Assembly: GCA_964016885.1 (NCBI GenBank)
Contig: OZ024744.1
Location: forward strand, 26,784,001 to 26,848,000
Origin: Eledone cirrhosa
Taxonomy: Eukaryota
Reading direction: 5' to 3'
Length of the DNA: 64,000 nt
Made by a program: the position numbers and the translations under genes. The notes beneath the pieces are model-generated. The model saw only the letters and a program-made list of their open reading frames with translations. It made no database searches and was not told the DNA's origin. Position 1 is the stretch's first letter. Every line of letters starts with the position of its first letter. Positions 581 to 24,035 of this stretch are shown one piece after another.

Positions 581-724
581 GAAAGGAATATTGTGAATAG
601 ATGGAAAATAGATCGAGGGACCTTCCCTCACGTCTATGTCAACAAGATAATCCAACGAGGATACTATCACTTACCACACTGGCAACTAACGACCACTGAT
701 TCTACCACCCTGCTAAAGTGGCGA

Positions 725-2502
725 TAACATCTATAACTAATACTGCTAAAAAGACATGGAAAACGACACTCCTTTTGAATAGTGAAACGAAATCACTGGA
801 AGCTGGAGAAGTTAATATTAATTGTGGAATTTTTCAGGGTGACTCTTTATCACCGCTTTTATTCTGCATCGCACTTATACCATTAAGTAAAATGCTCAAT
901 GAAACAAAACATGGATATAAAGTCTATGACAAAACCATTAATCACCTGTTCTACATGGATGACCTGAAACTATTTGTAAAAAATGATGAACAATTGCAAG
1001 GGCTATTATCCACTGTCGAGCAGTTCAGTGATGACATTAAAATGGAGTTTGAACTGGATAAATGCGCCAAAGTAACGTTCACGAGAGGAAAGCTAATGAA
1101 AAGTTCAGACATTAATCTTGAACGGGTGAATGTGATAAGAGAACTTGATCAAGAGGAAACTTACAAATATCTAGGTGTTTGTGAAGCAGATGGAATCAAG
1201 CACTCGACAATGAGGGAAAGGATAAGGAAGTAATGTTACCGCAGAGTAAGAGCAATCTTAAGAACGGAATTGAATGCAAGGAATAGGATCGATGCCATAA
1301 ACACGCTTGCCATACCAGTAGTAACGTACAGTTACAATGTCATCAACTGGTCAAGCACAGAGATCCGTAGGCTCGATACAAAAATTAGAACATTCTTAAC
1401 CATGCACAGAATGCATCACCCTAAGGCATATATAGATAGAATATATCTCCCTAGGAAAGAAGGAGGACGTGGGTTAATCCAGTTAGACATTGCGTTGAAA
1501 ACTCCAACAATTGGATTATCTACATATCTAAGGGAATCACATGATTGGATGATCAAGCTCGTTTTGAAACACGAAAGCATCAAAAGATCATAATCTATTA
1601 CAAAAGATGCACAAAGATACAGTAATGGACTACACATTTCAGAAGTCCCATTTACTGCTGAAATGGAAAACACAGAAAAAGCAAAGTAGGTAAAAGTAAC
1701 TGCAAAGAAAGAACTGCTACAGAAACTGGCTAAGAAATGGCAAGAAAAGCCTCTGTATGGAAAATACCCAGAACGAGCTAACAATCCTGATGTTGACAAC
1801 ACTTTAACCCATCAGTGGTTGGCATCCTCTGGACTGAAATCGGAGACTGAAGGACTGATTATATCAGCACAAGATCAGTGTCTGCCAACAAAAAATTACC
1901 AAGTCAACATAATAAAGAATGGATGCAGCCCATTATGCCGTGCATGTAAAAAACAACCAGAGACCATTGACCATATAATTTCAATGTGCAGTCCTATAGC
2001 TCCAACCGAATACCTAAACAGGCATGACAGAGCTGCACAATACATACATTGGATAATGTGTAAGCATTTTGACCTGCCCCATCAACAGAATTGGTGGGAG
2101 CATCAACCACCTCCCATACTTGAAAAAGATTACATCTCAATCTTGTGGAACTTTAGCATCCAAACAGACCGAAAAATAGATGCAAATAGACCTGATATAA
2201 TATTGAAGGACTTTCAAAAGAGGGTATGCCTGCTAATTGATATGTCTGTTCCAATAGACAAGAAAGTATCTATAAAAACATTTGAAAAATTGAGCAAGTA
2301 TAAGGAACTGGAGATAGAAATTGGAAAAATGTGGAAATTGAGAACTAAAACAATACCAGTGGTTGTAGGCGCTCTAGGAATGATACCTAAGGGGTCTAAT
2401 GATTACTTATCGCAAATCCCAGGAAACCTGCGTAAAGGAGAAATACAAAAGATAGTAGTAATGGGAACTGCCCATATACTAAGGAAGATTCTGTCAATAT
2501 AA
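725..2502 (+). pseudogene. Disrupted RT-RLE ORF of R4/Dong copy 1
   Basis: ORFs 718-1233, 1270-1593 and 1819-2502 are one frame broken by in-frame stops (TAA 1231, TAA 1591, TAG 1687). Confidence 0.88.
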
Positions 2503-2668
2503 GTACATCACAAGTCTAAACACCTAAAGATGCATGTGTGAGTATGTATGTTCTTTCTTGAACATGGCGGACCTTGTTGTCTCTTGAGGTCACTGGTTGT
2601 GACTTGGTGATAACTCGTATGAACATAAAGCAAGATAAATGCAGTTGTAATAATAATAATAATAATAA
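725..2668 (+). mobile_element. 5'-truncated R4/Dong-clade non-LTR retrotransposon (RT + RLE endonuclease), copy 1
   Basis: RT motifs GIFQGDSLSPLLF and HLFYMDDLKLF; CCHC knuckle CRAC..ETIDHIISMC; RHD; RLE motif RPD..D...K; 3' UTR ending in (TAA)n at 2648-2668. Confidence 0.92.
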
Positions 2669-2904
2669 GGGAAGAAATAATAAGAACTTATTTATTAACC
2701 ACAAGGGTTTACATAAAGTAGACATTAAGAAATAATAATGATTTCTTTATTGGCCACAAGGGCTGACATCAAGAAAAACATTACAGACGGCACAGGACGG
2801 TACAGGACGGTACGATGTGGGTTTTGTGCGTGTAAATATTTTTATTATTTACATAAGAAAAGAAAAAAATGTACATAGATACATATATATAAACAATAAA
2901 AATA

Positions 2905-5023
2905 AAAATTGAGAGCGGTGCCGAGCATCTGGACGTGTCTGGTGCTCGACACCACCACGGTGACGTCGTCAGCGAGCCGACTCGGATTTCCCGCATCCGA
3001 GTTCGCGTGGACGCCCCTCATCGCCCCCAAATTGTGCAGTAACGGCTCGAGAGCCAATACGTACAAGAGGGACGAGAGGGGAAAACCCTGGCGGACAGAG
3101 CGCCTGATGCTGAACGGCTGCGACAGGTGAACGTTCACCCTCACAACTGAGCAGATGTCGCTGTTCATTGCTGTGATCCAACCCCTGAAAACGGGCCCGA
3201 AACCGGCTGCCACGAGGACCGCCGCCAGGTACTGATGGTCGAGCCTATCGAATGCTTTGGATTGATCCAAATTGATCAGGGCCCCACCCGTGCCAGGTTC
3301 TTTAACCACTCTGTCTATGATGTATCGCATGAGGTGGAGGTTGTCGTGTATGGATCTGTCCGGAATGGCGCATATCTGCGCCTCTCCCACCAGACCCTTG
3401 ACGACAAGTGCCAACCTCGTTGCTAACAACTTGGCCAAAATCTTGAACTCTGCGTTTAGCAGGGTTATGGGCTTGAAATTATCGATAACATCCCCCTTGT
3501 TTGGGTCTTTTCTCAGCAGCACCACTGCTCCCCGGCTCACAAAACTGTGAATGCTCCCGTTCTTCTGTCAGTTGCAGTAGACGTCTGCCAAGAGGTCACC
3601 GAACAAGTCTGGCATAAATGCATAAAGCTCGTAGGGCAGACCATCCAAACCTGGCGATTTACCCCTTGAGCAATTAGCCATCATTCCCGTATTTCACCGG
3701 ATGTTATTGGCTTTTCGCAACACTGTGCTGCGGTCGTCGAGAGCCGAGGGAGTCCGTCGAGCTATGCTCTGAAGTCCATACCCCGATTCGGGCCGCCACC
3801 GCTCCCGAACAGTTCAGCAAAGTGCTGCTGAAAAGCTTCCCACATCCGCTCGGGTTCGAGCATCACGCACCCGTTTTGGTCAGACAAAGATCGAATTGTG
3901 GCTTTGTTGCCACGTCGCGCCTCTGCCACCCGGGCCCATTGGACGGCTTTCGTCCCCTCGTGTTTCAGAGCACGTACTCTAGCTCTGACAACGCAGCCTT
4001 CGTGTTTTGCGTTGAAGAATTGGGCGAGTGCCAATCTCGCCGCAAACACGCCGGTTGCGATGCCTGTCGTAAACGCCACTTCTAGCTTTCTGACTAGCTC
4101 TTCCTCTACTCTATTTTCCTCTATCACTACTCCTTTGCTAAACCTAATCGACTCTACTTTAATTGCCCTTTTCAGGGCAAACCACCACCTGTTGTTGACG
4201 TCCGCTCCCATCAACGCCCGCTTAACTAATATGCTAATCCGGTCTCTGCAGGCTTTGCGTGCCGGGAAAGACGCGTTCAGCTTCCAATAACCAGGTCCTT
4301 GTCTATGAAGTCTGTCTATGTCGATCTCACAGATCACAAATTTGTGGTCTGTGTAGTCGACTATTTTAAATTGTGGACAACTTATACTAGCATTATCTAG
4401 TTCTCTGCAGAATACCCTATCCAGATACGATCTGGATGACCCGATGCGGTTTGTCCATGTCCACATTGGCACATTCGGGTGATCCAATCAATACCTGTCA
4501 GACAGTTCAAAACGTCTGAGCAGGTTGTTGAGGCTCTTGCACCCTCCTTCCCTATCCACTAGCCCCACACAATCCCAGCGTGCATCCAAGATACCGTTCC
4601 AGTCGCCCACTAACACTAAAGAGCGGAACGTTCCAAGAAGGGTCTCTAGACGTCTGAAGAAATCTGGCCGTCCTGCCCCTGATGGGGCGTAGGCGGCTAC
4701 TAGCCTGAAAGAATTGCCTTCTCTGCCGGTCACGTCCAGCACCACCGACTTACCTGCTGGGTCTAGGAATATGGCCCGTATGGCGAGATCCATGCCTCTC
4801 CGAAAAAGGACGGCAACCCCTCTACCCGATCCTGGACGGATGGGAGATGCGTATACATCGTAGCCGCCGAAGATCGGTGCGAAGGTTTGTGCTTCGGAGA
4901 TTCTGGTTTCACTGAAGGGCAGCACATCTATGTTTAGTGACCTGATGTCATTGAGCAGGTGACCCTGCTTCAAGATGACCCCAGGCCACGTGCATTTATA
5001 CTGCCTATTCTGAGTACGGCCAT
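2905..5023 (-). pseudogene. Tx1-type ORF2 (apurinic endonuclease + reverse transcriptase), frameshifted with stops
   Basis: Fragments 4488-4973, 3762-4487 and 2845-3540 are collinear parts of APE, linker and RT. Confidence 0.88.
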
Positions 5024-5059
5024 GTTGGATGAGAAACGGGGCAAGTGAGAAAGGGTCAT

Positions 5060-6325
5060 TTACCTTGATCGTGTGGTGAAGGGACAGTAGAACCGTCCCT
5101 TTGGCTGGTCATGGGTGTTTCCAAGAGGATGTAGTGTATATCCTCTTGGTAACCCACCCTGTGAAGTCTCCAACTTGGGGTGTTTTTGTTTTAAAGGTTT
5201 GTACTGTTCTATTGAGATTTCAATGTTGCTTATGTTTGTCGGGAGAGTTCTTGGTGTTGGTGGGGTGTAGTAGTTTTTTTCCTGTAATGTCTGTGTGCTG
5301 CTTTATATATTGTATGAGTTATTTTTTTACCATGTTTATGGCTGTGTACTTTTTGGGGGGAGGGGTGATTTTGTTGCTGTTTTCTTCTTGTTGCTGTTTG
5401 GTGTGTGTGTCTTGTTGTGTTTGCGTTGTTGGTGTTTGTGGTGGTGATGGTGGTGGTGTTGCTGCAAGTTTCCTTGCTGCCTTTACCCCTCTTTGTATGC
5501 CTTCGCTTTTGGAGGGTGAATCTAAGGTTTTTTTCTTTTTTCTTTTTTGTGGCAGACCGTTTGCCACTTCACTCCCGCCTCAAACTCCATGTCGGATTAT
5601 GTGGCGTCTGGGAGGGGTACGTGCTCCATGGCTGTTGGTGGTCGTAGTGGAGCCATCTTCGGCAATTTTGTTGCTGGTGTAGCTACTTCAAATGTAGCTA
5701 TTGGTGTTACCGCCACTGATGATGCTGCTTTAGTTGTCCGTGGCCTTGGTACGGGGGCCACGGACGTTGCCCTCCTACTCACCATGGAAGGGTCTTCTGC
5801 GTTTGTTTCCTGCCCTGCTCTTGGTAGCAGCGGACCAGGTATTGGAAGGAGAGGGGCCTTCTTCTTTGCTGTCTTCTGCGGGCAAAAGTTCCTGAGGTGA
5901 CCCTTCGACCCATAGAGATAACATTTTGGCCGTCTTCCTTCTACGCTTATACGGAGTTGGAGTCCTTCCTCGATGTCTATGATATCGGGGATAGCGCCGA
6001 TACATTCCTGATCAGTTTGTATAAGCATTTGCATGCCTATACCTGACCAGTTCTCTCTCCCTATTTTCTCTACTTGCTGCATGGTCGTTCTGTCCTCGAT
6101 TCCAGCAAGGACAGACACGTCCAGCCAAGGTATGGGCACGTCAGGTGGTACCTGGGTCACATTGACCCTCACAATTTTCTGCCCGCAGTAGGAGGGCACC
6201 AAGATTATCTCCTCACTCTTTAGGGTTACCAAAGTGTGAGATTTTGCTTCCTGGTGGAAAAATACGTCTACTGTGGCGTACTTTCTGCCTCGGGTGATGT
6301 GGGTTTTGCATGCCCAGACGCACGC
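5060..6325 (-). pseudogene. Tx1-type ORF1 (gag-like, CCHC knuckle, low-complexity C-terminus), 5'-truncated
   Basis: ORF 5597-6367 contains ISVEGRRPKCYLYGSKGHLRNFCP, followed by Pro/Thr/Lys-rich sequence (5319-5567) directly upstream of ORF2. Confidence 0.7.
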
Positions 6326-7892
6326 CAATGCAGGATACAAGTTGGGAAAGGGAGAGCTTACCATCAATCACCTCCTCTTCATGGACGATCTTAAGCTCTT
6401 CGGAAAGAGTGAGAAGGAGTTGGATGTGCTTGTTGACACTGTCCGTATTTTCAGTAATGATATATGTATGCAATTTGGTATTAGTAAGTGTGGAGTCCGT
6501 GTGATGAAGAGGGCTAAATTGAGCAGAAGCAACGGAATTCAAGTACCAACAGGTGAGATGATAAAGGAAATTGACACTGAAGAAGGATACAAGTATTTGT
6601 GTATTCTGGAGGCTGATGACATCAAGAACCAAAAATGAAGGAATTGATAAGATCTGAATACATTCGGAGATTAAGGAGCGTATTAAATTCACATCTGAAC
6701 AGTAGGAATGCCATAAGTGCAGTAAATTCCCGAGCTGTGTCTATTATTAGGTAGAGTGCGGGAATTCTGAGATGGAATGTTGCTGAACAAAAAGAAATGG
6801 ATAGGAAGACTAGGAAGCTATTGACTATCTACAATATGTTCCACAAGAGGAGTGATGTTGATAGACTCTACTTAAGGAGATCTGAAGGTGGAAGAGGTCT
6901 TATCAGCATAGAGGACTGTGTTCAGATGGAGAAAAACAACCTACACAAATACGTGACCGATAGTAAGGAGTCAATGCTCAAAATTGTACTGAAGGAAAGG
7001 ACAATAGACCAGGGGATGTCCAAGGAGGAAATAACAACAAGGAGAAAGACCAATCTTCATGAAAAATCCCTTCATAGTACCTTCTTTGAGAAAACGGAAT
7101 TCAGAGATCCACAGACATGGAACTGGTTGAGAAGAGGAGACTTTAAAAAGGCTACAGAAGGAATGATAATGGCTGCACAAGAGCAAGCCCTCAAAACGAA
7201 GTGGCTGAAACACCATATTTACAAGGAGGAGGCTAGCCCACTGTGCAGGATCTGTGGAGAGAGAGAGGAGACTGTGGCTCACATTGTATCCGAGTGTAAA
7301 CATCTAGCCCAGACTCACTATAAAGGCTGGAGACATGACGTGATGGGCAGGGTGATCCATTGGCACCTATGCAAAGTAAAGAATTTACCACATTCTGAGA
7401 AGTGGTATGAGCATAAGCCAGAGTCGGTGATAGAAAACAATCAGGTGAAGATGCTGTGGGAGTTTAGGATACAGACGGACAAGAAACTGGAACACAATAG
7501 ACCTTACCTGGTGGTTTTGGACAAGGAAAAAAGATCGTGCCTGATTGTGGATGTGGCTGCCCATTCGACACGAGAGTGCAAGAGATGGAGAGGGAGAAAA
7601 TTAACTGATACCATGACTTAAAGTAGGAGGTAAAAAGGATTTGGAACTGCCATGAAGTCAAAGTGATCCCGATTGTCATAGACGCACTAGGTACTATCTC
7701 AAAAAGTTTCCAGGGATGGTTAAAGAAAATTGGCCCCGCCCCGCTTTTTGGAACACTTCAAAAGGCACGCTTGCTGGGAACAGCAAGAACCCTCCGATAC
7801 GTCCTGAATATCTGAGGCTGCAGGTAGTGGCTTGATATTCATTTCAACAAACTTTCCAGTTAACTAACATCAATGACAGAGACTCAAAGAAC

Positions 7893-8657: not shown

Positions 8658-8661
<4 letters not shown>

Positions 8662-8860
8662 TTGAAATAAAATGAAAACGAAATTTCATTTCTCACTCTT
8701 AGTACAGCACTCTTAGTACGGCACTTACAAAAAGGTGACGTGGTTGCCTTAACACCGTACGGCATACAATTCAGTCTGTTCAGTTTGTTTACAAACGAAC
8801 AAAGCGGCGTTATAATAAGCGTCCGCTAAACTGATACGTGCATATATGTATGTGTACCTG

Positions 8861-8946
<86 letters not shown>

Positions 8947-9376
8947 TGCTACTGTACGTCTGTATACATATATGTATGTACGTATACACACATACTTACA
9001 TTTAAGTAAGTGCCGTACTAAGAGTGAGAAATGAAATTTCGTTTTCATTTTATTTCAACTTATCGTTTTCGGTATGCCTGACCGACTTAACTCACTCGAT
9101 ATGCAAATTAGGCTGCTCAGCCGTTAATTTTCATAAGGAAAGTATATACTTTCGAACGTTCAACTATCTGGCAGAAGGCTATACGGTGCTGATGATAGCT
9201 AACAAGCTTGAAACTAGTACATCGTTCCTGTGTCAGTGTTGAACAAAAAGGTGACGTGGTTGCCTTAACACCGTACGGCATAAAATTCAGGCTGTTCAGT
9301 TTGTTTACAAACGAACAAAGCGGCGTTATAATAAGCGTCCGCTAAACTGATACGTGCATATATATATGTGTACCTG

Positions 9377-9799: not shown

Positions 9800-10215
9800 C
9801 AGAAGCACAAGTTAGTATAGCTAGATCTAAACTTAGAAATATTATAGAATAGTCTAGCAAGAAGCATAATAGAATGGAGGCCCAGCAACTGGGAGAAAAA
9901 TCTGCAAATGGCTTGCGTAAGCTCATGCAGCGCTCACGTAATGGAGAGATAGCATGCTTTCCAACAGACAAGTCTGGCAGAATGTCGGTTGACAGTCTGC
10001 CAAACTACATCCAGGCGATGCAACCCCACATCACTAACACAAGAGAAGTAACACCACAAGAGCATGAGGATAGAGAAAAAGCCCTCAATACTCATATGGT
10101 GATGTGGACAAATATAATGCAGCCCAACAAAAGGATTGCCAACAACTTCCAGGCCTGGAACAATGACCTGCCAGCGTTGTATGGGCTTTGAAAAGACCAT
10201 AAAACGCAGTGACCC
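9800..10215 (+). pseudogene. Penelope-like element RT N-terminal fragment
   Basis: IACFPTDKSGRMSV (DKG motif) and LPALYGL*KDHK, matching the P..YGLPK.HK motif that opens PLE RT. Confidence 0.65.
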
Positions 10216-10217
10216 TC

Positions 10218-10646
10218 TCACGGGACCAGCATCACGGCCAGTCTGATCAGTGTGTGGTATCTGTCAGGGTTGACGAAATAGAGGTTTCCAGTTTTGTCCG
10301 AGTGCACCATGATGTCGTTGGTGTTTTCATACTCTGTTATTTTGCTACGGAGTTGTTGTAGGAATCTGTTGTGTCTGGGTTTGAATTTAATGCTCTTGAC
10401 CGGATGGAAAAGGTCGTTCTCGAAGGGTGAGAGCATAGGGTTCGGAGTAGGAGATTTGTAGGTGTTGAATCCGAATCTCCCCTTGGTGTCGAAGTCCTGA
10501 TTGTCGCGGTATCTATCGTAGAAAAAAGTTCTCCATCTCAGTCTTTTCGCAAAAAGGTCGATTTTTTGCGTGAGCATCCGAAGGTAAAGTTTTCTCGGTG
10601 GAACTGGGATGTTCTTGGTGGAGAAGTCGATGTTGTGTTTTCGCAT
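10218..10646 (-). pseudogene. Penelope-like element ORF N-terminus (Naiad-like), 3'-truncated
   Basis: FSTKNIPVP, KRLRWRTFF, GF..YKSP, FENDL, IKF and VHSDKTGNLY: the N-terminal pattern of a PLE ORF up to the DKG-like motif. Clade assignment is inference. Confidence 0.75.
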
Positions 10647-11203
10647 CGTGCGGGTGAAGAAACTTGAGCTGGGTGGAAAAGTCGGGATATGGCGTGGTAG
10701 AGTCGGAAAGTGCTCTACTACAGAGATAGGAGCTAAATAACAAAGGGATTATGGTAAGGAACCAGATGGACCATAACGCACCAGAGTACTCAATACTTAG
10801 GGTAGTAGAGTGGGAAATAGGAAAATGTATGACCTCGACGGCAGAGCTCAAGCCGTTGCTACGGCTATTTCTGGAGTAAATTAGAATTTTTAGCCTGGTG
10901 AATAAATAGCCGAACTTGTCAAGGAGGTACTGCCTTATATGGGAAGATTGGTTAACATTTGTTGTAAACACAAATAAGTCTATCATGGTATTTGGTGGGA
11001 GGTAGGTTAAGAATACAGGGTAGTCCCTTACAATTAAATAGCTCTAAGAAAAAAGCTTTTCCGAGCCGTACAATAAAATTGACTAAACAAGAGAGATGAA
11101 CACTAATATAAACATACATGTGTTCGAACCGTAAGGACCAAAATATGCTAGGGAGAAAAAATACTAACTACAGCAATATAGTTTGTTATCCTTAACTTTA
11201 AGT

Positions 11204-11462: not shown

Positions 11463-11509
<47 letters not shown>

Positions 11510-11511
<2 letters not shown>

Positions 11512-13122
11512 AACCAGTAAGACCCCGACAGCTGAGCTCAAGCCGTTTCGACGGCTAATTCTGGACTAAATGAAAATTTATCCTGGTATTTAAATAGCCG
11601 ATCTTCTCAAGGGGTAATTCCATATATGGTCAAAGTGATTGTCAAAAATCAGTAGTAATTCTGTGGTTGCAAATTAGTAGGGGAGATGGTGGCTAAACCT
11701 GCCAGTAGGAGAAAGAGGGGAGGGGGTGGAGTAGACCCAATCAAGCGTTGGTAGTGCCAGCTACAGCTGGGCATGAGGTCAAAGAAGATACAGGGGAGGG
11801 GGAGGGGGAGGAAGTCGGAACGGTAGGTAGAACAATGGGGGGTAGAAATATATAGGAAAGAAAAAAAATACTGAGAGTGAAGAAAAGCAAATAAGTGTAA
11901 AGAAAAAAGTAAAGTAAAGTAAATTCTACGACCTAGGTCTCAGGCTATTGTTAGGCTAGAATAAAATAAAGAAAGAAAGAAAGAAGTAAAGAAATAAATA
12001 AATAACGAAATAAGTAAAAGAACTAGGTGGGACGGCATAGGCAAGGACCCTTTTAAGAGGTATAAGTACGTAAATGATACGGTGACGGGTCAACAAAAGG
12101 GGCCAAAATACTAAAGAGACTACCACGAAATAAACAATAAAGGTTTCCATCCCGGGCCAGCAACGACCCAGTGCAGCAAAGTGAACTTGTACGAGATAAT
12201 AATTCTGAGTCCCGAGAAAAATATATACTAATGCTAACTCTAAAAGATCTAAAACAAGCTACATGAAAGTTCGTACGAAATAAAGGTAGAATACGGAGAA
12301 ATAAATTCAGAATCCACCCCGCCCAGAAGAAAAGCGAAGCAAGAAATACTGAAACGAAAAAATAAGGCATAAGTGCCACTAAGAAATATAGAGGGCACAG
12401 AGAATAGTGGGAGCGGTCGGAAAAAGGGGGCAAGTATCCGGGGTCTAAGCCAACTGCTATAAAGGGCGGAGTCCGCCAAATCTATCATAGACTAGGGGAG
12501 GGGGGGTGGGGGTACTAAGGCTACATGGGGCCAAAGGGCAGCCTCGGGTGGGCGAGAAAAGACGCCGACAAAGGAGAAGAGCTGGGGTAGAAGGACTAAG
12601 GAGAGAGGGGGAAGGAAATAAAGGAAGCGATAAAAGAATACAAAGAAGATCTTACGTCTTCCTTGGCAAGCAGGGGTTACCCATTGCAAAATCGGCAAGT
12701 GGGGTGTTATAGCCCTAGTCTACCCCCCCGGGTCATTATGGGGTTTGAGGGCGAGGTAAGTCCTACGCAATCTATGTTTACATGCAGTGACCAGTTCATC
12801 TTTCTTGTTTAGGAGTTGGTCCGTCGAAAACAGCATTTGTAAAGTTTCCTCCGAGCATAAATTGCACGGACGGCGTCCTCCCGTGTAAGAATTGGCTCTG
12901 GACAGTAATCTCCAAGTGAGATCATAGGTGATGTTGTTGTCCTTGAGGTCCCATATGTGGCCCGAAAGTGTAGTGGCGTGACGCCGGGCCGGGTTTCGGA
13001 AGGTATGTCTTCAAGGTATGACTTCAAGACCCGGCTTGGTTCCTATTACCCACTCTACTACCTCAAGTATTGAGTACTTTGGTGCGTTATGGTCCACCTG
13101 GTTCCTTACCACATTTCCTTCG
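11510..13122 (-). mobile_element. 5'-truncated PLE 3' end (GIY-YIG C-terminus + long UTR/pseudo-LTR) with an inverted terminal piece
   Basis: Coding remnant 12720-13010; 11520-11630 resembles 10835-10945; 13045-13115 is an inverted diverged copy of ~10750-10820; flanked by (TA)n. Confidence 0.7.
12720..13010 (-). pseudogene. C-terminal part of a PLE GIY-YIG endonuclease (not in the ORF track)
   Basis: Manual translation: [96 protein letters not shown], with LS.HIW.LK, CxLC, LLNK and CxH motifs. Confidence 0.8.
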
Positions 13123-13827: not shown

Positions 13828-13990
13828 TGTATAAAGAATGAATAATAACAGGTAGACATCATAAAAAGGTAATTTATTCCGTGTGCTTACAAATGTGTCC
13901 ACGGTGGTACTACAGCTTAGTTATGCTATGTGCAAATTTACAACTATTTGCGGAACTCAAATATCCAATGCTGTGACCACTGTATCCTAT
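13828..13990 (-). mobile_element. Decayed reverse-oriented copy of the 16.1-16.4 kb hammerhead element
   Basis: Reverse complement matches 16231-16390; GAAAC has become GACAC and the CTG of the core is missing. Confidence 0.75.
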
Positions 13991-14541: not shown

Positions 14542-14597
<56 letters not shown>

Positions 14598-14604
<7 letters not shown>

Positions 14605-15678
14605 GATCGAGTATCGGAAAATCGGCGCACGAGTTCACGATAAACAAAATTCGAAATGAGCGGCAGAGGGCTCAATAATTCAGATGAATCAGAGCTATAA
14701 CTATCGTTAAAATACCGTCACATATAGAACAAGTCTACAATCAACCATACGATAAAAAATCGATAATAGAAGATTCGGGACAAACAGATAAAAAATATCA
14801 ATAAAACAATACGTCAATAATTTAAATGATTTTACATTCATTTAAATTATTGACGTATTGTTTTATTGATATTTTTTATCTGTTTGTCCCGAATCTTCTA
14901 TTATCGATTTTTTATCGTATGGTTGATTGTAGACTTGTTCTATATGTGACGGTATTTTAACGATAGTTATAGCTCTGATTCATCTGAATTATTGAGCCCT
15001 CTGCCGCTCATTTCGAATTTTGTTTATCGTGAACTCGTGCGCCGATTTTTCGATACTCGATCTTTCTAATATTTTTAGCTCTGGACATAGCTATCCACCA
15101 GTTAATTTTATTGCTCATTTTTTGTCGATTCTATTGAGTGATGAATAGCTTTTGTTTTATTTTAACATGTCTATTGAGCACTCTTATTCGATATGTGTAT
15201 TTCCACATTCCCTCGAATTGTTTTCGCGGATATAGAGGTTATCTCCCTTGTCTAATGCCATGTGCGTTTTTCACTGGTAGTTAGCCCCTCTCCCGCCAGG
15301 AAAAAAGCTCGTTGAGAAAGTAAACTCCGTTCCGCTTACTCTAGTAGGCTTTTATATTTATATGTGAGCTGATAGAGTACAGTCTAAGGATTTACAGAAA
15401 CCCATGAAGCTAGATTTAACACCTGTCTAGTGGGTCCGGGTATGATTTTACATTCATTTAAATTATTGACGTATTGTTTTATTGATATTTTTTATCTGTT
15501 TGTACCGAATCTTCTATTATCGATTTTTTATCGTATGGTTGATTGTAGACTTGTTCTATATGTGACGGTATTTTAACGATAGTTATAGCTCTGATTCATC
15601 TGAATTATTGAGCCCTCTGCCGCTCATTTCGAATTTTGTTTATCGTGAACTCGTGCGCCGATTTTTCGATACTCGATC

Positions 15679-15686
<8 letters not shown>
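14598..15686 (+). mobile_element. Non-coding retrozyme/PLE-like element: ~230-bp inverted arm + 616-bp unit + ~245-bp direct repeat, inserted in (TA)n
   Basis: 14598-14829 is the reverse complement of 14838-15069; 14826-15070 is repeated at 15442-15686; near identity between copies; TA tracts on both sides. Confidence 0.85.
15307..15441 (+). ncRNA. Type I hammerhead ribozyme with U3:A8 variant core and long stems II and III
   Basis: Stem I GCTCG/CGGGT; core TTGAGAA 15312-15318; stem II GTAAAcTCC/GGATTTAC with inner TACTCTA/TAGAGTA; GAAA 15397-15400; stem III CCCA..CTAGA..TCTAG/TGGG; GUC ending at 15436. Confidence 0.72.
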
Positions 15687-15738
<52 letters not shown>

Positions 15739-16125: not shown

Positions 16126-16390
16126 TGTATATAAAGAATGAATAATAACAGGTAGACATCATAAAAAGGTAATTTATTCCGTGTGCTTACAAGTCTTTCC
16201 ACGGTGGTACTGCAGCTTAGTTATGCTCTGAGGAAACAGTGGTCACAGCAATGGATATTCGAGTTCTGCAAGTACTTGTGAATTTGCACGTAGCATAACT
16301 AGGCTGCAGTACCACCGTGGAAACACTTGTAAGCACACGGAATAAATTACCTTTTTATGATGTCTACCTGTTATTATTCATTCTTTACAT
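16126..16390. mobile_element. Foldback element (~100-bp inverted arms) overlapping a long-stem-II hammerhead
   Basis: 16126-16227 is the reverse complement of 16292-16390. Confidence 0.8.
16224..16336 (+). ncRNA. Candidate hammerhead ribozyme with ~85-nt stem II domain
   Basis: TGCT/AGCA stem I; CTGAGGA 16228-16234; stem II ACAGTGGT..CAGC/GCTG..ACCACCGT; GAAA 16320-16323; minimal stem III; GUA ending at 16331. Confidence 0.6.
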
Positions 16391-16660: not shown

Positions 16661-16663
<3 letters not shown>

Positions 16664-17781
16664 CCCAGTACACCGGCCCCACGCCCGAACTGTACGGTCG
16701 TTACATTGACGACTGTATCAGAGCCACGACCCTCACCCGAGTACAGCTCGACTCCTTTCTCTCCTTCTTCTGCTCCTCCCACCCCTCACTCCACTTCACC
16801 ACCTCTATCTCCTCCACCCACGTCCACTTCTTAGACATCTCCGTCGCCTTCGACCCCTCCCACCACTCCCTCGTCACCTCCGCCTTCTTCAAACCCACCG
16901 ACTTCCACTCTTACCTCGACTTCACCTCTTCCTACCCCACCCACACTAAACTCTCCATTCCCTACTCCCAACTTCTCAGGATCCGCCGCCTCTGTAGCCG
17001 AGATGCTGACTTCGAGTCCCAGGCCCTTTCCCTAGTCAGCCATTTCATCTGCAGAGGTTACCCCCCCCCCCCTCTCTCGTCCACACCGCTCTCACCCACG
17101 CCCGTGCTATCCCCCGCTCCACCACCCTCACCCCACGCCACCGCACACCTACCCACCGTCTCCCCTTCCCCATCACCTACCACCCCTCCACCTTACCCCT
17201 CCACCGCACCATCCGCCGCCTCTTCCTCCACCTCCAGTCCGACCCCTCCACCTCCCACATCTTCCCAACCCCACCACTCCCCTCCTTCAAACGCGCACGC
17301 AATCTCCGCACCCTCCTCGTCCACAGCTCCCTACCCCCCAACCCACGCTCCGTTCCCCCCCCCCGGTTCCTTCCCCTGTTCTAGGCCCCGCTGCAACACC
17401 TGCCCCCACATCACCAACACCACCACCTTCCAGGGTCCCAACGGCCACCCTCTCTCGGTCCGGCATGCCTTCCGCTGCACCTCCTCCAACCTAGTCTACG
17501 GACTTCGTTGCACGAGGTGCAGCGCGAATTATGTCGGACAGACGGGACGCCGCCTGGCGGACCGAGTCACGGAGCACCTCCGGGACATTCGTCTCGGGGG
17601 CAGTTCCCCCATCGCCCGCCACTTTGGTGGCCCTGGACACTCCGCACGCCATCTCACAGTCTGTGGCCTACTCCAGTGCCACGGAACACCCGCCCATCGC
17701 CTTACGGTCGAACAACGTACTATCTTCATCCTTCAGACCCACACTCCCCCCTGCCTGAACTCCCCACCCTTATTCCTTTAG
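16661..17781 (+). pseudogene. PLE RT C-terminal half + GIY-YIG endonuclease
   Basis: ORF 16621-17781; the Pro/Ser-rich middle looks out of frame between poly-C tracts at ~17061 and ~17355 (compensating frameshifts, inference). Confidence 0.85.
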
Positions 17782-23288: not shown

Positions 23289-24035
23289 ACATTATTATTA
23301 ATGTTCGATATACAGAGTTTAAGATTTTGGCCAAGGTGTTACCGAAGAGGTTGGCGCTTGTTGTCAGGGATTTAGTTGGGGAGGTGCAAACTCTTGCGCA
23401 ATCCCAATCAGGTCCATACACGACAACCTTCACCTAATGCGACACATCATAGAGAGGGTAGGGTGTAAACCTGGCTTTGATGGGGCTCTGATCAATTTAG
23501 ATCAATCGAAAGCATTCGATAGAGTCGACCATCGGTACCTGAAGGCTGTCCTCAAGGCGGCTGGCTTCGGCACCGTCTTCAGAAGCTGGATCGCTGCAAT
23601 GCACAGCGGCACCTGCTCGGTGGTCAAAATGAATGGCCACCTCTCGGAACCATTTCAGGTCTCCCGATCGGTCCGTCAAGGGTGCCCTCTATCCCCCCTT
23701 CTGTACGTATTGACTCTCGAGCCTTTACTGCGGAAGCTGGAGCTATAGCAGGGCATCCCGCTCGAACCGGAAAGGCTGTGTCGGCTTATGCGGACGACAT
23801 CACCGTGATGGTATCGGACACCTCAGATATCAAATTGGTCGGCAACTTATTGGAGCAATATGAAAGGTTGACAGGAGCAAAACTTAACCCGGAAAAGTCG
23901 GTGGGCTTGCAACTCCGCACCTGGAGAGGCAAGTCCATGCCGTCCATCAGCTTCGTTAGGCGCTGGACGGGCCGGTAAAGTTGCAGGTGTATAAGAATTG
24001 GGACGAGGTGACGGGCAGGGTAGCCAGTCTGCCCC
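23289..24035 (+). mobile_element. Tx1-type RT fragment, paralog of the 2.9-3.5 kb RT
   Basis: KILAKVL, HDNLHLMRHII, LINLDQSKAFDRVDH, VRQGCPLSPLLYVL, AYADD. Confidence 0.88.

What the first reader, a model, noticed from the sequence alone, without database searches (positions are those of the whole stretch)
14598..15686. 616-nt unit whose repeat junction lies 5 nt after the predicted ribozyme cut, preceded by a ~470-bp near-perfect palindrome
Seen: the direct repeat restarts at 15442 (ATGATTTTACATTC, also at 14826), just after cleavage site 15436, and the first ~230 bp is also present inverted. Copies differ by only one or two visible bases, so the insertion is young. Inference: a 1.4-mer copy is what reverse transcription around a circular (or tandem) ribozyme-processed RNA followed by fold-back would leave. 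There is no ORF.
Basis: partly seen in the sequence, partly recalled or inferred. Interest (0 to 1): 0.75.

Follow-up and report, generated by a model that had tools for sequence, protein, structure and literature searches.

The report
Head-to-head hammerhead retrozyme, Penelope footprint
This is one of at least 775 young insertions of a 616-base non-coding repeat with a predicted self-cutting RNA motif, likely pasted into TA microsatellites by a Penelope-type retrotransposon enzyme; its mirror-image half was likely written from the other side of the DNA break, which makes it a new family of a known kind of parasite with unusually readable footprints.

Summary
In detail: a 478-bp palindrome, a 616-nt unit and a 247-nt partial copy, between (TA)n tracts, no ORF. 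The genome has 775 exact 3' ends of this family in (TA)n. The 3' end is fixed (unit position 247), 5' ends vary, and arrays reach 18 full units, so this is neither a MITE nor a circularly permuted family. Position 15442 is not a junction in tandem arrays; it marks where this copy's 5' end lies. 5' ends do pile up just after the predicted cut at 15436 (11 of 79 against 1.35 expected). The hammerhead is a type I variant (U3-A8 core at 15312, long stem II); cutting is untested. Twelve other head-to-head copies exist; 11 pair the 247 end with a second start site at 140-146, with independent lengths, and two cannot be fold-backs. Best reading: two cDNAs primed from both ends of a cut (TA)n and joined head to head; for this copy on a linear, 5'-cut oligomeric RNA rather than a circle. 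The partner element was not found and no RNA was seen. The scan noted the same kind of insertion for other families in this genome.

The parts
14546..14598 (.). left (TA)n target tract
   Evidence: sequence; boundary with the arm is ambiguous by a few bases
14595..14829 (-). inverted arm, unit positions 247 back to 13; outer end at the family's main 3' end
   Evidence: same haplotype as the middle unit except one private change
14826..14841 (.). head-to-head junction: 4-nt microhomology (ATGA/TCAT) around 8 nt; lies 5-21 nt after the predicted cut position of the unit
   Evidence: this exact junction occurs once in the genome
14826..15441 (+). full 616-nt unit (U1-616), no ORF
14965..14971 (+). 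U140-146: minor outer end of the family (inferred second reverse-transcription start site); also at 15581-15587; not used as an end in this copy
   Evidence: 15 insertions end here into (TA)n
15307..15441 (+). predicted type I hammerhead variant: stem I 15307-15311/15437-15441, core TTGAGAA 15312-15318, unpaired A 15319, branched stem II 15320-15395, extra A 15396, GAAA 15397-15400, stem III to 15435, cut after C15436
   Evidence: activity not tested; no Rfam match
15369..15376 (+). CTGATAGA: looks like a core but sits in a hairpin inside stem II
   Evidence: gives only a 1-bp stem I; its last A varies A/T/G
15442..15688 (+). terminal partial unit U1-247, ending at the family's fixed 3' end (inferred main start of reverse transcription, 252 nt after the cut)
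15686..15733 (.). right (TA)n target tract
   Evidence: sequence

Best explanation
This is an insertion of a non-coding 616-nt tandem-repeat family with a fixed 3' end in (TA)n and a predicted hammerhead ribozyme, likely mobilised in trans by a Penelope-like element (PLE) protein, and its palindrome likely comes from two cDNAs primed on both ends of the cut target. Steps: (1, inferred) tandem copies are transcribed and the hammerhead cuts some junctions after U611, giving RNAs with a hard 5' end; (2, inferred) a PLE RT-endonuclease cuts (TA)n and starts reverse transcription inside the RNA at U247, or less often at U140-146; (3, shown as structure) the copy ends at a variable 5' point, most often just after the cut, and is joined to TA; (4, inferred) in about 2% or more of events the second target end primes its own cDNA and the two are joined head to head. 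In this copy both cDNAs started at a U247 and both ended at the cut, one after 235 nt and one after 863 nt, which fits one linear RNA of at least 1.4 units, cut at its 5' ribozyme and uncut at the internal one.
For: Fixed 3' end: 16 of 16 insertions found with U245-616; 775 exact end+TA matches against 1619 internal-unit matches; older sister families (78-94% identity) keep the same end. 5' ends in 89 of the 100 listed C1 insertions (77 with a visible 5' end): first-passage stops in U612-U25 in 11 of 79 against 1.35 expected, p=2e-7; the equally AT-rich U26-55 has 1; one insertion starts exactly at U612. Hammerhead: the unconstrained fold gives the three-way junction (z -1.99); 13 core positions are invariant in 24 of 24 rows while N7, position 8 and the unpaired base vary; stem I 99%, proximal stem II 97% paired. 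U3-A8 cores and an unpaired base before stem II are reported for PLE hammerheads (PMC4209133). Head-to-head copies: of 15 insertions with an outer end at U140-146, 11 are head-to-head with the other end at U247 and 4 stand alone; halves have independent lengths; L267 and L268 cannot be made by copying either half from the other (my arithmetic); 4 of these 11 junctions lie at the cut, p=0.001. Later-passage stops at the cut: 5 of 26 in close relatives of this copy, p=2e-5. A purified PLE protein cuts and extends both strands of AT-rich DNA and starts at two internal RNA sites (PMC11167929); partial tandem + inverted 5'-truncated copy + one-sided tail + (TA)n bias is the described PLE footprint (PMC8557442). 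Intact, young, PLE families exist in this genome, one with a fixed end in (TA)n.
Against: No autonomous partner found: two PLE families checked share no real similarity with the unit (only about 65%-identity AT-rich hits). No RNA data. The ribozyme has no Rfam match even at E 10, carries an extra A before GAAA in all rows, has U3.G8 rather than U3-A8 in 11 of 24 rows, and the consensus fold prefers a competing hairpin to proximal stem II; both-side changes in the core stems come from one sequence, and 86 of 162 columns are invariant anyway. This copy is the only one of 13 head-to-head insertions with both ends at U247, and its junction also fits a snap-back. In the unbiased set later-passage stops are not enriched (3 against 2.3); the 5-of-26 set was chosen by likeness to this copy. 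Long arrays that are internally identical, 12 of 33 with fixed private variants, fit a circle better than a linear oligomer. In vitro, a PLE hammerhead was dispensable for insertion and no RNA ends were found at its cut (PMC11167929).
Confidence: 0.68

Rival explanations
1. Same element, but this copy's arm is a snap-back: one cDNA reached the RNA 5' end, folded on the native ATGA/TCAT hairpin, copied itself for 235 nt and was joined to the target through the ATAT at U244-247.
For: 4-nt stem with an 8-nt loop at the junction; arm and body share a haplotype, as in the other cases (including a private deletion in both halves of L204); 3 of the 11 other U146-type junctions fit a short hairpin in geometry.
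Against: 2 of 11 cannot be snap-backs, 1 only with untemplated bases, 5 would need loop-outs of about 360-580 nt (my arithmetic); the arm ends exactly at the main start site, 1 of 12 TATA/ATAT words in the unit; U140-146 also occurs as a stand-alone end (4 of 15).
Confidence: 0.25
2. The template is a covalently closed 616-nt circle copied by rolling-circle reverse transcription, for this copy too; the ends near the cut are due to pausing at the ligation junction or to AT microhomology.
For: Arrays of up to 18 identical full units; 12 of 33 multi-unit arrays carry variants fixed in all units and seen nowhere else in the sample; later-passage stops 3 of 170 outside this subfamily; circles are shown for other animal retrozymes (PMC7229834). 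Probably true for many long arrays.
Against: A circle has no end: here both halves stop at the cut, one on the second passage; in L243 both halves stop there on the third passage; 5 of 33 arrays carry variants at intermediate frequency, which one circle cannot give without later exchange.
Confidence: 0.2
3. The motif does not cut; the 5' pile-up marks a transcription start site near U612-U10.
For: No Rfam match; non-canonical core details; 8 of 9 tested frog retrozymes did not cleave (bioRxiv 10.64898/2026.07.22.740005).
Against: The pile-up begins at the predicted scissile bond; core conservation with variation at the positions expected to be free.
Confidence: 0.2
4. Assembly or chimeric-read artefact, or a DNA MITE.
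For: Not checked with long reads of this animal; no strand-changing joint appeared in 4 runs laid on the unit (contigs and RAD reads, which need not hold a single-locus junction).
Against: The arm stops at the family end and runs into (TA)n and a different flank, unlike a fold-back read, which would mirror everything; 12 other head-to-head copies have their own junctions; 0 of 77 ordinary copies have inverted ends and 5' ends vary.
Confidence: 0.03

Closest known systems
Metazoan non-LTR retrozymes (Cervera & de la Pena 2020, PMC7229834: passages and Discussion read; Li, Clavereau & Pollet 2026, bioRxiv 10.64898/2026.07.22.740005: parts 1-3 of 5 read, supplements not seen)
   Same: Non-coding tandem repeats with one type I hammerhead per unit; unit length within the reported 51-972 bp; monomers to multimers; co-occurrence with PLEs.
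   Different: Longer than the 170-400 nt of the 2020 paper; hammerhead with U3-A8/G8 core, a 76-nt branched stem II and a long stem III; no RNA shown; no sequence link to a pLTR found. In what I read, those papers do not map fixed 3' ends, a second start site or head-to-head copies.
Endonuclease-bearing Penelope-like elements and their insertion footprint (Craig et al. 2021, PMC8557442: passages read; Frangieh et al. 2024, PMC11167929: parts 1-2 of 4 read, supplement not seen)
   Same: 5' truncation, partial tandems, inverted 5'-truncated copy, one end longer than the other, (TA)n bias, internal start downstream of the hammerhead, both strands extended.
   Different: No RT or GIY-YIG ORF; the two start sites are about 100 nt apart rather than 30-40; inverted copies are rare here (13 found against 775 ends). 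Non-autonomous PLE derivatives with multicopy tandems (MRC1) are described in Chlamydomonas.
PLE hammerhead variants (Cervera & de la Pena 2014, PMC4209133: parts 1-2 of 4 read)
   Same: Type I order, U3-A8 covariation, unpaired base between positions 9 and 10.1, G10.1-C11.1, 5-bp stem I.
   Different: Not minimal: large stems II and III, so no need to dimerise; an extra A before GAAA; frequent U3.G8.
L1 twin priming (recalled, not read)
   Same: Second target end primes its own cDNA, giving an inversion.
   Different: Here the inverted part duplicates sequence already in the body and starts at set sites.

Membership tests
non-LTR retrozyme | tandem repeat units dispersed in the genome | tested here: met
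non-LTR retrozyme | no protein-coding capacity | tested here: met
   longest frame 62 aa; none of 120 aa or more over the locus
non-LTR retrozyme | a type I hammerhead motif in each unit | tested here: met
   motif and fold, with deviations; no Rfam match
non-LTR retrozyme | self-cleavage of the RNA | not testable with these tools
   indirect only: 5' ends pile up after the predicted cut
non-LTR retrozyme | expressed as monomeric linear and circular RNA | not testable with these tools
   no RNA holder listed
non-autonomous PLE derivative | PLE footprint: fixed internal 3' end, variable 5' end, partial tandem, inverted 5' copy, microsatellite target | tested here: met
non-autonomous PLE derivative | sequence shared with the pLTR of an autonomous PLE | tested here: inconclusive
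   none in 2 families checked (29 + 29 loci) nor in the window's own PLE pieces; other families not examined
autonomous PLE | RT plus GIY-YIG ORF | tested here: not met
MITE | both termini fixed, terminal inverted repeats in all copies | tested here: not met
   0 of 77 visible 5' ends inverted; 5' ends spread over the unit
non-circularly permuted hammerhead (type SGC etc., PMC10085705, passages read) | blocks in non-circular order | tested here: not met
   a scan of all block orders within 130 nt on both strands returned only the type I order

The most novel reading that the evidence does not exclude
This family is a natural record of the PLE reaction on a retrozyme: two start sites 100 nt apart serving the two target ends, in vivo hammerhead cutting readable in genomic 5' ends, and linear part-cut oligomers, not only circles, as templates, with the share differing between subfamilies; the ribozyme itself is an undescribed type I variant with a branched stem II that may act as a folding switch.
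Probability: 0.35. Interest if true: 0.62.

Novelty: new member of a known kind. Interest (0 to 1): 0.42.

Why it matters
How animal retrozymes are copied into DNA, and what the hammerhead does in Penelope-type elements, are stated as open in the papers read (PMC7229834, PMC8557442, bioRxiv 10.64898/2026.07.22.740005; PMC11167929 found no RNA ends at the cut). This young family gives exact, testable predictions: cut after U611, start at U247 and U140-146, head-to-head joining of two cDNAs. The architecture itself is known for PLEs, and the scan has noted it for other families in this genome, so a specialist would find it useful rather than surprising.

Tried and rejected
Ribozyme core at CTGATAGA (15369): my first reading; dropped because it leaves a 1-bp stem I and a better core lies at 15312. 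The idea that the A>T change in the long-array subfamily weakens the ribozyme fell with it: that base belongs to a competing hairpin. A second cut register after 15442 scores lower and was not pursued. Snap-back as the family mechanism (my reading) was dropped; a notebook line saying L262/L265 exclude it outright was too strong (they need loop-outs over 500 nt). Rfam: nothing at gathering score or E 10. Partner search: two PLE families, no link. Sequencing runs: no RNA holder listed; one search shows the 616->1 joint and many ends at 15072 into TA in a DNA run, and no strand-changing joint; low-depth contigs under other organism labels carry the long-array haplotype and were not used as evidence for other hosts. 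Papers: Penelope + inverted + snap-back + retrotransposon gave 0; some searches gave the papers cited; I claim no wider absence from print. Earlier findings by sequence and near the locus: none. Rows dropped: L082 (wrong side, refetched as L102); 11 of the 100 listed C1 ends not entered; 12 of 89 censored; alignment A1 holds 24 hand-picked variants and leaves out a unit with a broken core (3 hits), one with GAAA changed, and a truncated one.

Full report
Observation. The region reads (TA)n, an inverted 235-nt arm, a 616-nt unit U (14826-15441), U1-247 again (15442-15688), (TA)n. The arm and the last copy each differ from the middle unit at one base, and both changes are private to this locus among the copies fetched. 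The palindrome spans 478 bp with an 8-nt loop, and the unit has no frame over 62 aa. The genome is a 3.0-Gb assembly rich in retroelements and TA tracts.

Family. Sixteen insertions found with U245-616 all end at U247 followed by (TA)n, while their 5' ends vary. Exact patterns give 775 such ends and 1619 internal units. Arrays run through 616->1 without a seam and reach 18 full units, so 15442 is not a family junction. Sister families at 78-94% identity, with periods of 602-612 nt, keep the same end. One array ends at U113 next to an assembly gap, and four stand-alone insertions end at U140-146; these are the exceptions seen.

5' ends. I entered 89 of the 100 listed C1 insertions, 77 with a visible 5' end read from BLAST alignments, which can overrun a few bases into TA. 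On the first passage 11 of 79 stop in U612-U25 against 1.35 expected (p=2e-7); the equally AT-rich next window has 1 event; a second hot spot, U116-145, has 11 against 4.3. One insertion begins exactly at U612. Later passages show 3 stops against 2.3 expected in this set. By subfamily: relatives of this copy stop 7 of 24 times on the first passage, and 0 of 4 (unbiased) and 5 of 26 (set chosen by likeness) on later ones; the others 4 of 55 and 3 of 170.

Ribozyme. Rfam finds nothing. The obvious CTGATAGA gives a poor structure. The free fold gives this junction (7 of 200 shuffles fold as well). In 24 hand-picked variants 13 core positions are invariant; N7, position 8 and the unpaired base after A9 vary. 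Stem I is 99% paired with three one-sided changes; proximal stem II is 97% paired with two both-sided changes from one sequence; the inner stem II helix has three pairs with both-sided changes. Against: the alignment is 85% identical, an extra A precedes GAAA, 11 rows have U3.G8, and the consensus fold favours a competing hairpin. U3-A8 cores and the unpaired base are described for PLE hammerheads (PMC4209133). Cleavage is inferred, about 0.7.

Palindrome. The exact junction is unique, and 0 of 77 ordinary C1 insertions are inverted. Searches aimed at junctions near U1-20 found five more head-to-head copies of different haplotypes, the two halves sharing their variants. A search independent of junction position, for outer ends at U140-146, gave 15 insertions: 11 head-to-head, all with the other end at U247, and 4 stand-alone. 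With L245 (arm end U120) and this locus that makes 13, a lower bound of 1.7% of 775. The halves have independent lengths (for example 1376 and 996, 269 and 5199). By my arithmetic on those coordinates, L267 and L268 cannot arise by copying either half from the other, L240 only with untemplated bases, five need loop-outs of about 360-580 nt, and three fit a short hairpin (overlaps of 0, 3 and 4 nt). Four of the 11 junctions lie at the cut (p=0.001). This points to two cDNAs, one from each target end. The present copy is atypical in having both ends at U247, and its 4-nt/8-nt junction still allows a snap-back.

Template. Long arrays are nearly uniform inside; 12 of 33 have fixed variants seen nowhere else in the sample and 5 of 33 have variants at intermediate frequency. 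The first fits repeated copying of one monomer (circle), the second later exchange or mixed templates. For this copy and for L243, where both halves end at the cut on a later passage, a linear oligomer cut only at its 5' ribozyme is the simpler template. Template jumping between cut monomers is not excluded.

Partner. Two young PLE families with long intact ORFs, hammerhead-like cores and, in one, a fixed end in (TA)n are present, but neither shares sequence with U. PLE mobilisation therefore rests on the footprint: partial tandem, inverted 5' copy, one-sided tail and (TA)n bias (PMC8557442), and a PLE protein that cuts and extends both strands and starts at two internal sites (PMC11167929).

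Comparison and verdict. It works like, and on the testable features is, a metazoan non-LTR retrozyme (PMC7229834; bioRxiv 10.64898/2026.07.22.740005; supplements not seen and could list a similar family), moved like a non-autonomous PLE. It is not a MITE, not an autonomous PLE and not a scrambled hammerhead (PMC10085705). No RNA was seen and the locus was not checked with long reads. New member of a known kind; interest 0.42, for the sharp predictions rather than for surprise.

Noticed in passing
window 25720-64000: 79-bp satellite, about 486 copies, 92% matches
   Followed up: no
window 16663-17781 (+) and L143-L171, L236-L239: 5'-truncated Neptune-type PLE (RT, cysteine linker, GIY-YIG-like end; type named from recalled motifs, no Pfam hit); family has 28,719 candidates, ORFs over 800 aa, a minimal hammerhead and a fixed 3' end about 95 nt later in (TA)n
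   Followed up: partly
window 9874-10210 (+) and L230-L235: Fragment of a second young PLE family with ORFs of 1150-1260 aa, a hammerhead-like core in both flanking repeats, and several head-to-head pairs in the hit list
   Followed up: partly
window 10748-10900, 11509-11600, 13022-13120; ORF 10218-10748 (-): A third (TA)n-targeting repeat that very often forms palindromes with one arm ending at a fixed site; may be one of the families with scrambled hammerheads in earlier notes, not checked
   Followed up: partly
L081:2115-2440: The retrozyme's 5' end at U612 abuts the end of an arm of that third repeat with no TA between; either an insertion at the edge of an older copy or a joint event
   Followed up: partly
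window 13830-13988 / 16130-16390 and 8660-9070: Further short repeats in direct and inverted arrangement among (TA)n tracts
   Followed up: no
L008; L271; L272: An internal deletion (U401 to U188) in one insertion, and short duplicated stretches at two head-to-head junctions, suggesting template slips during joining
   Followed up: no
window 700-7621 and 23323-23978: Broken LINE-type RT fragments; two match Pfam RVT_1
   Followed up: no
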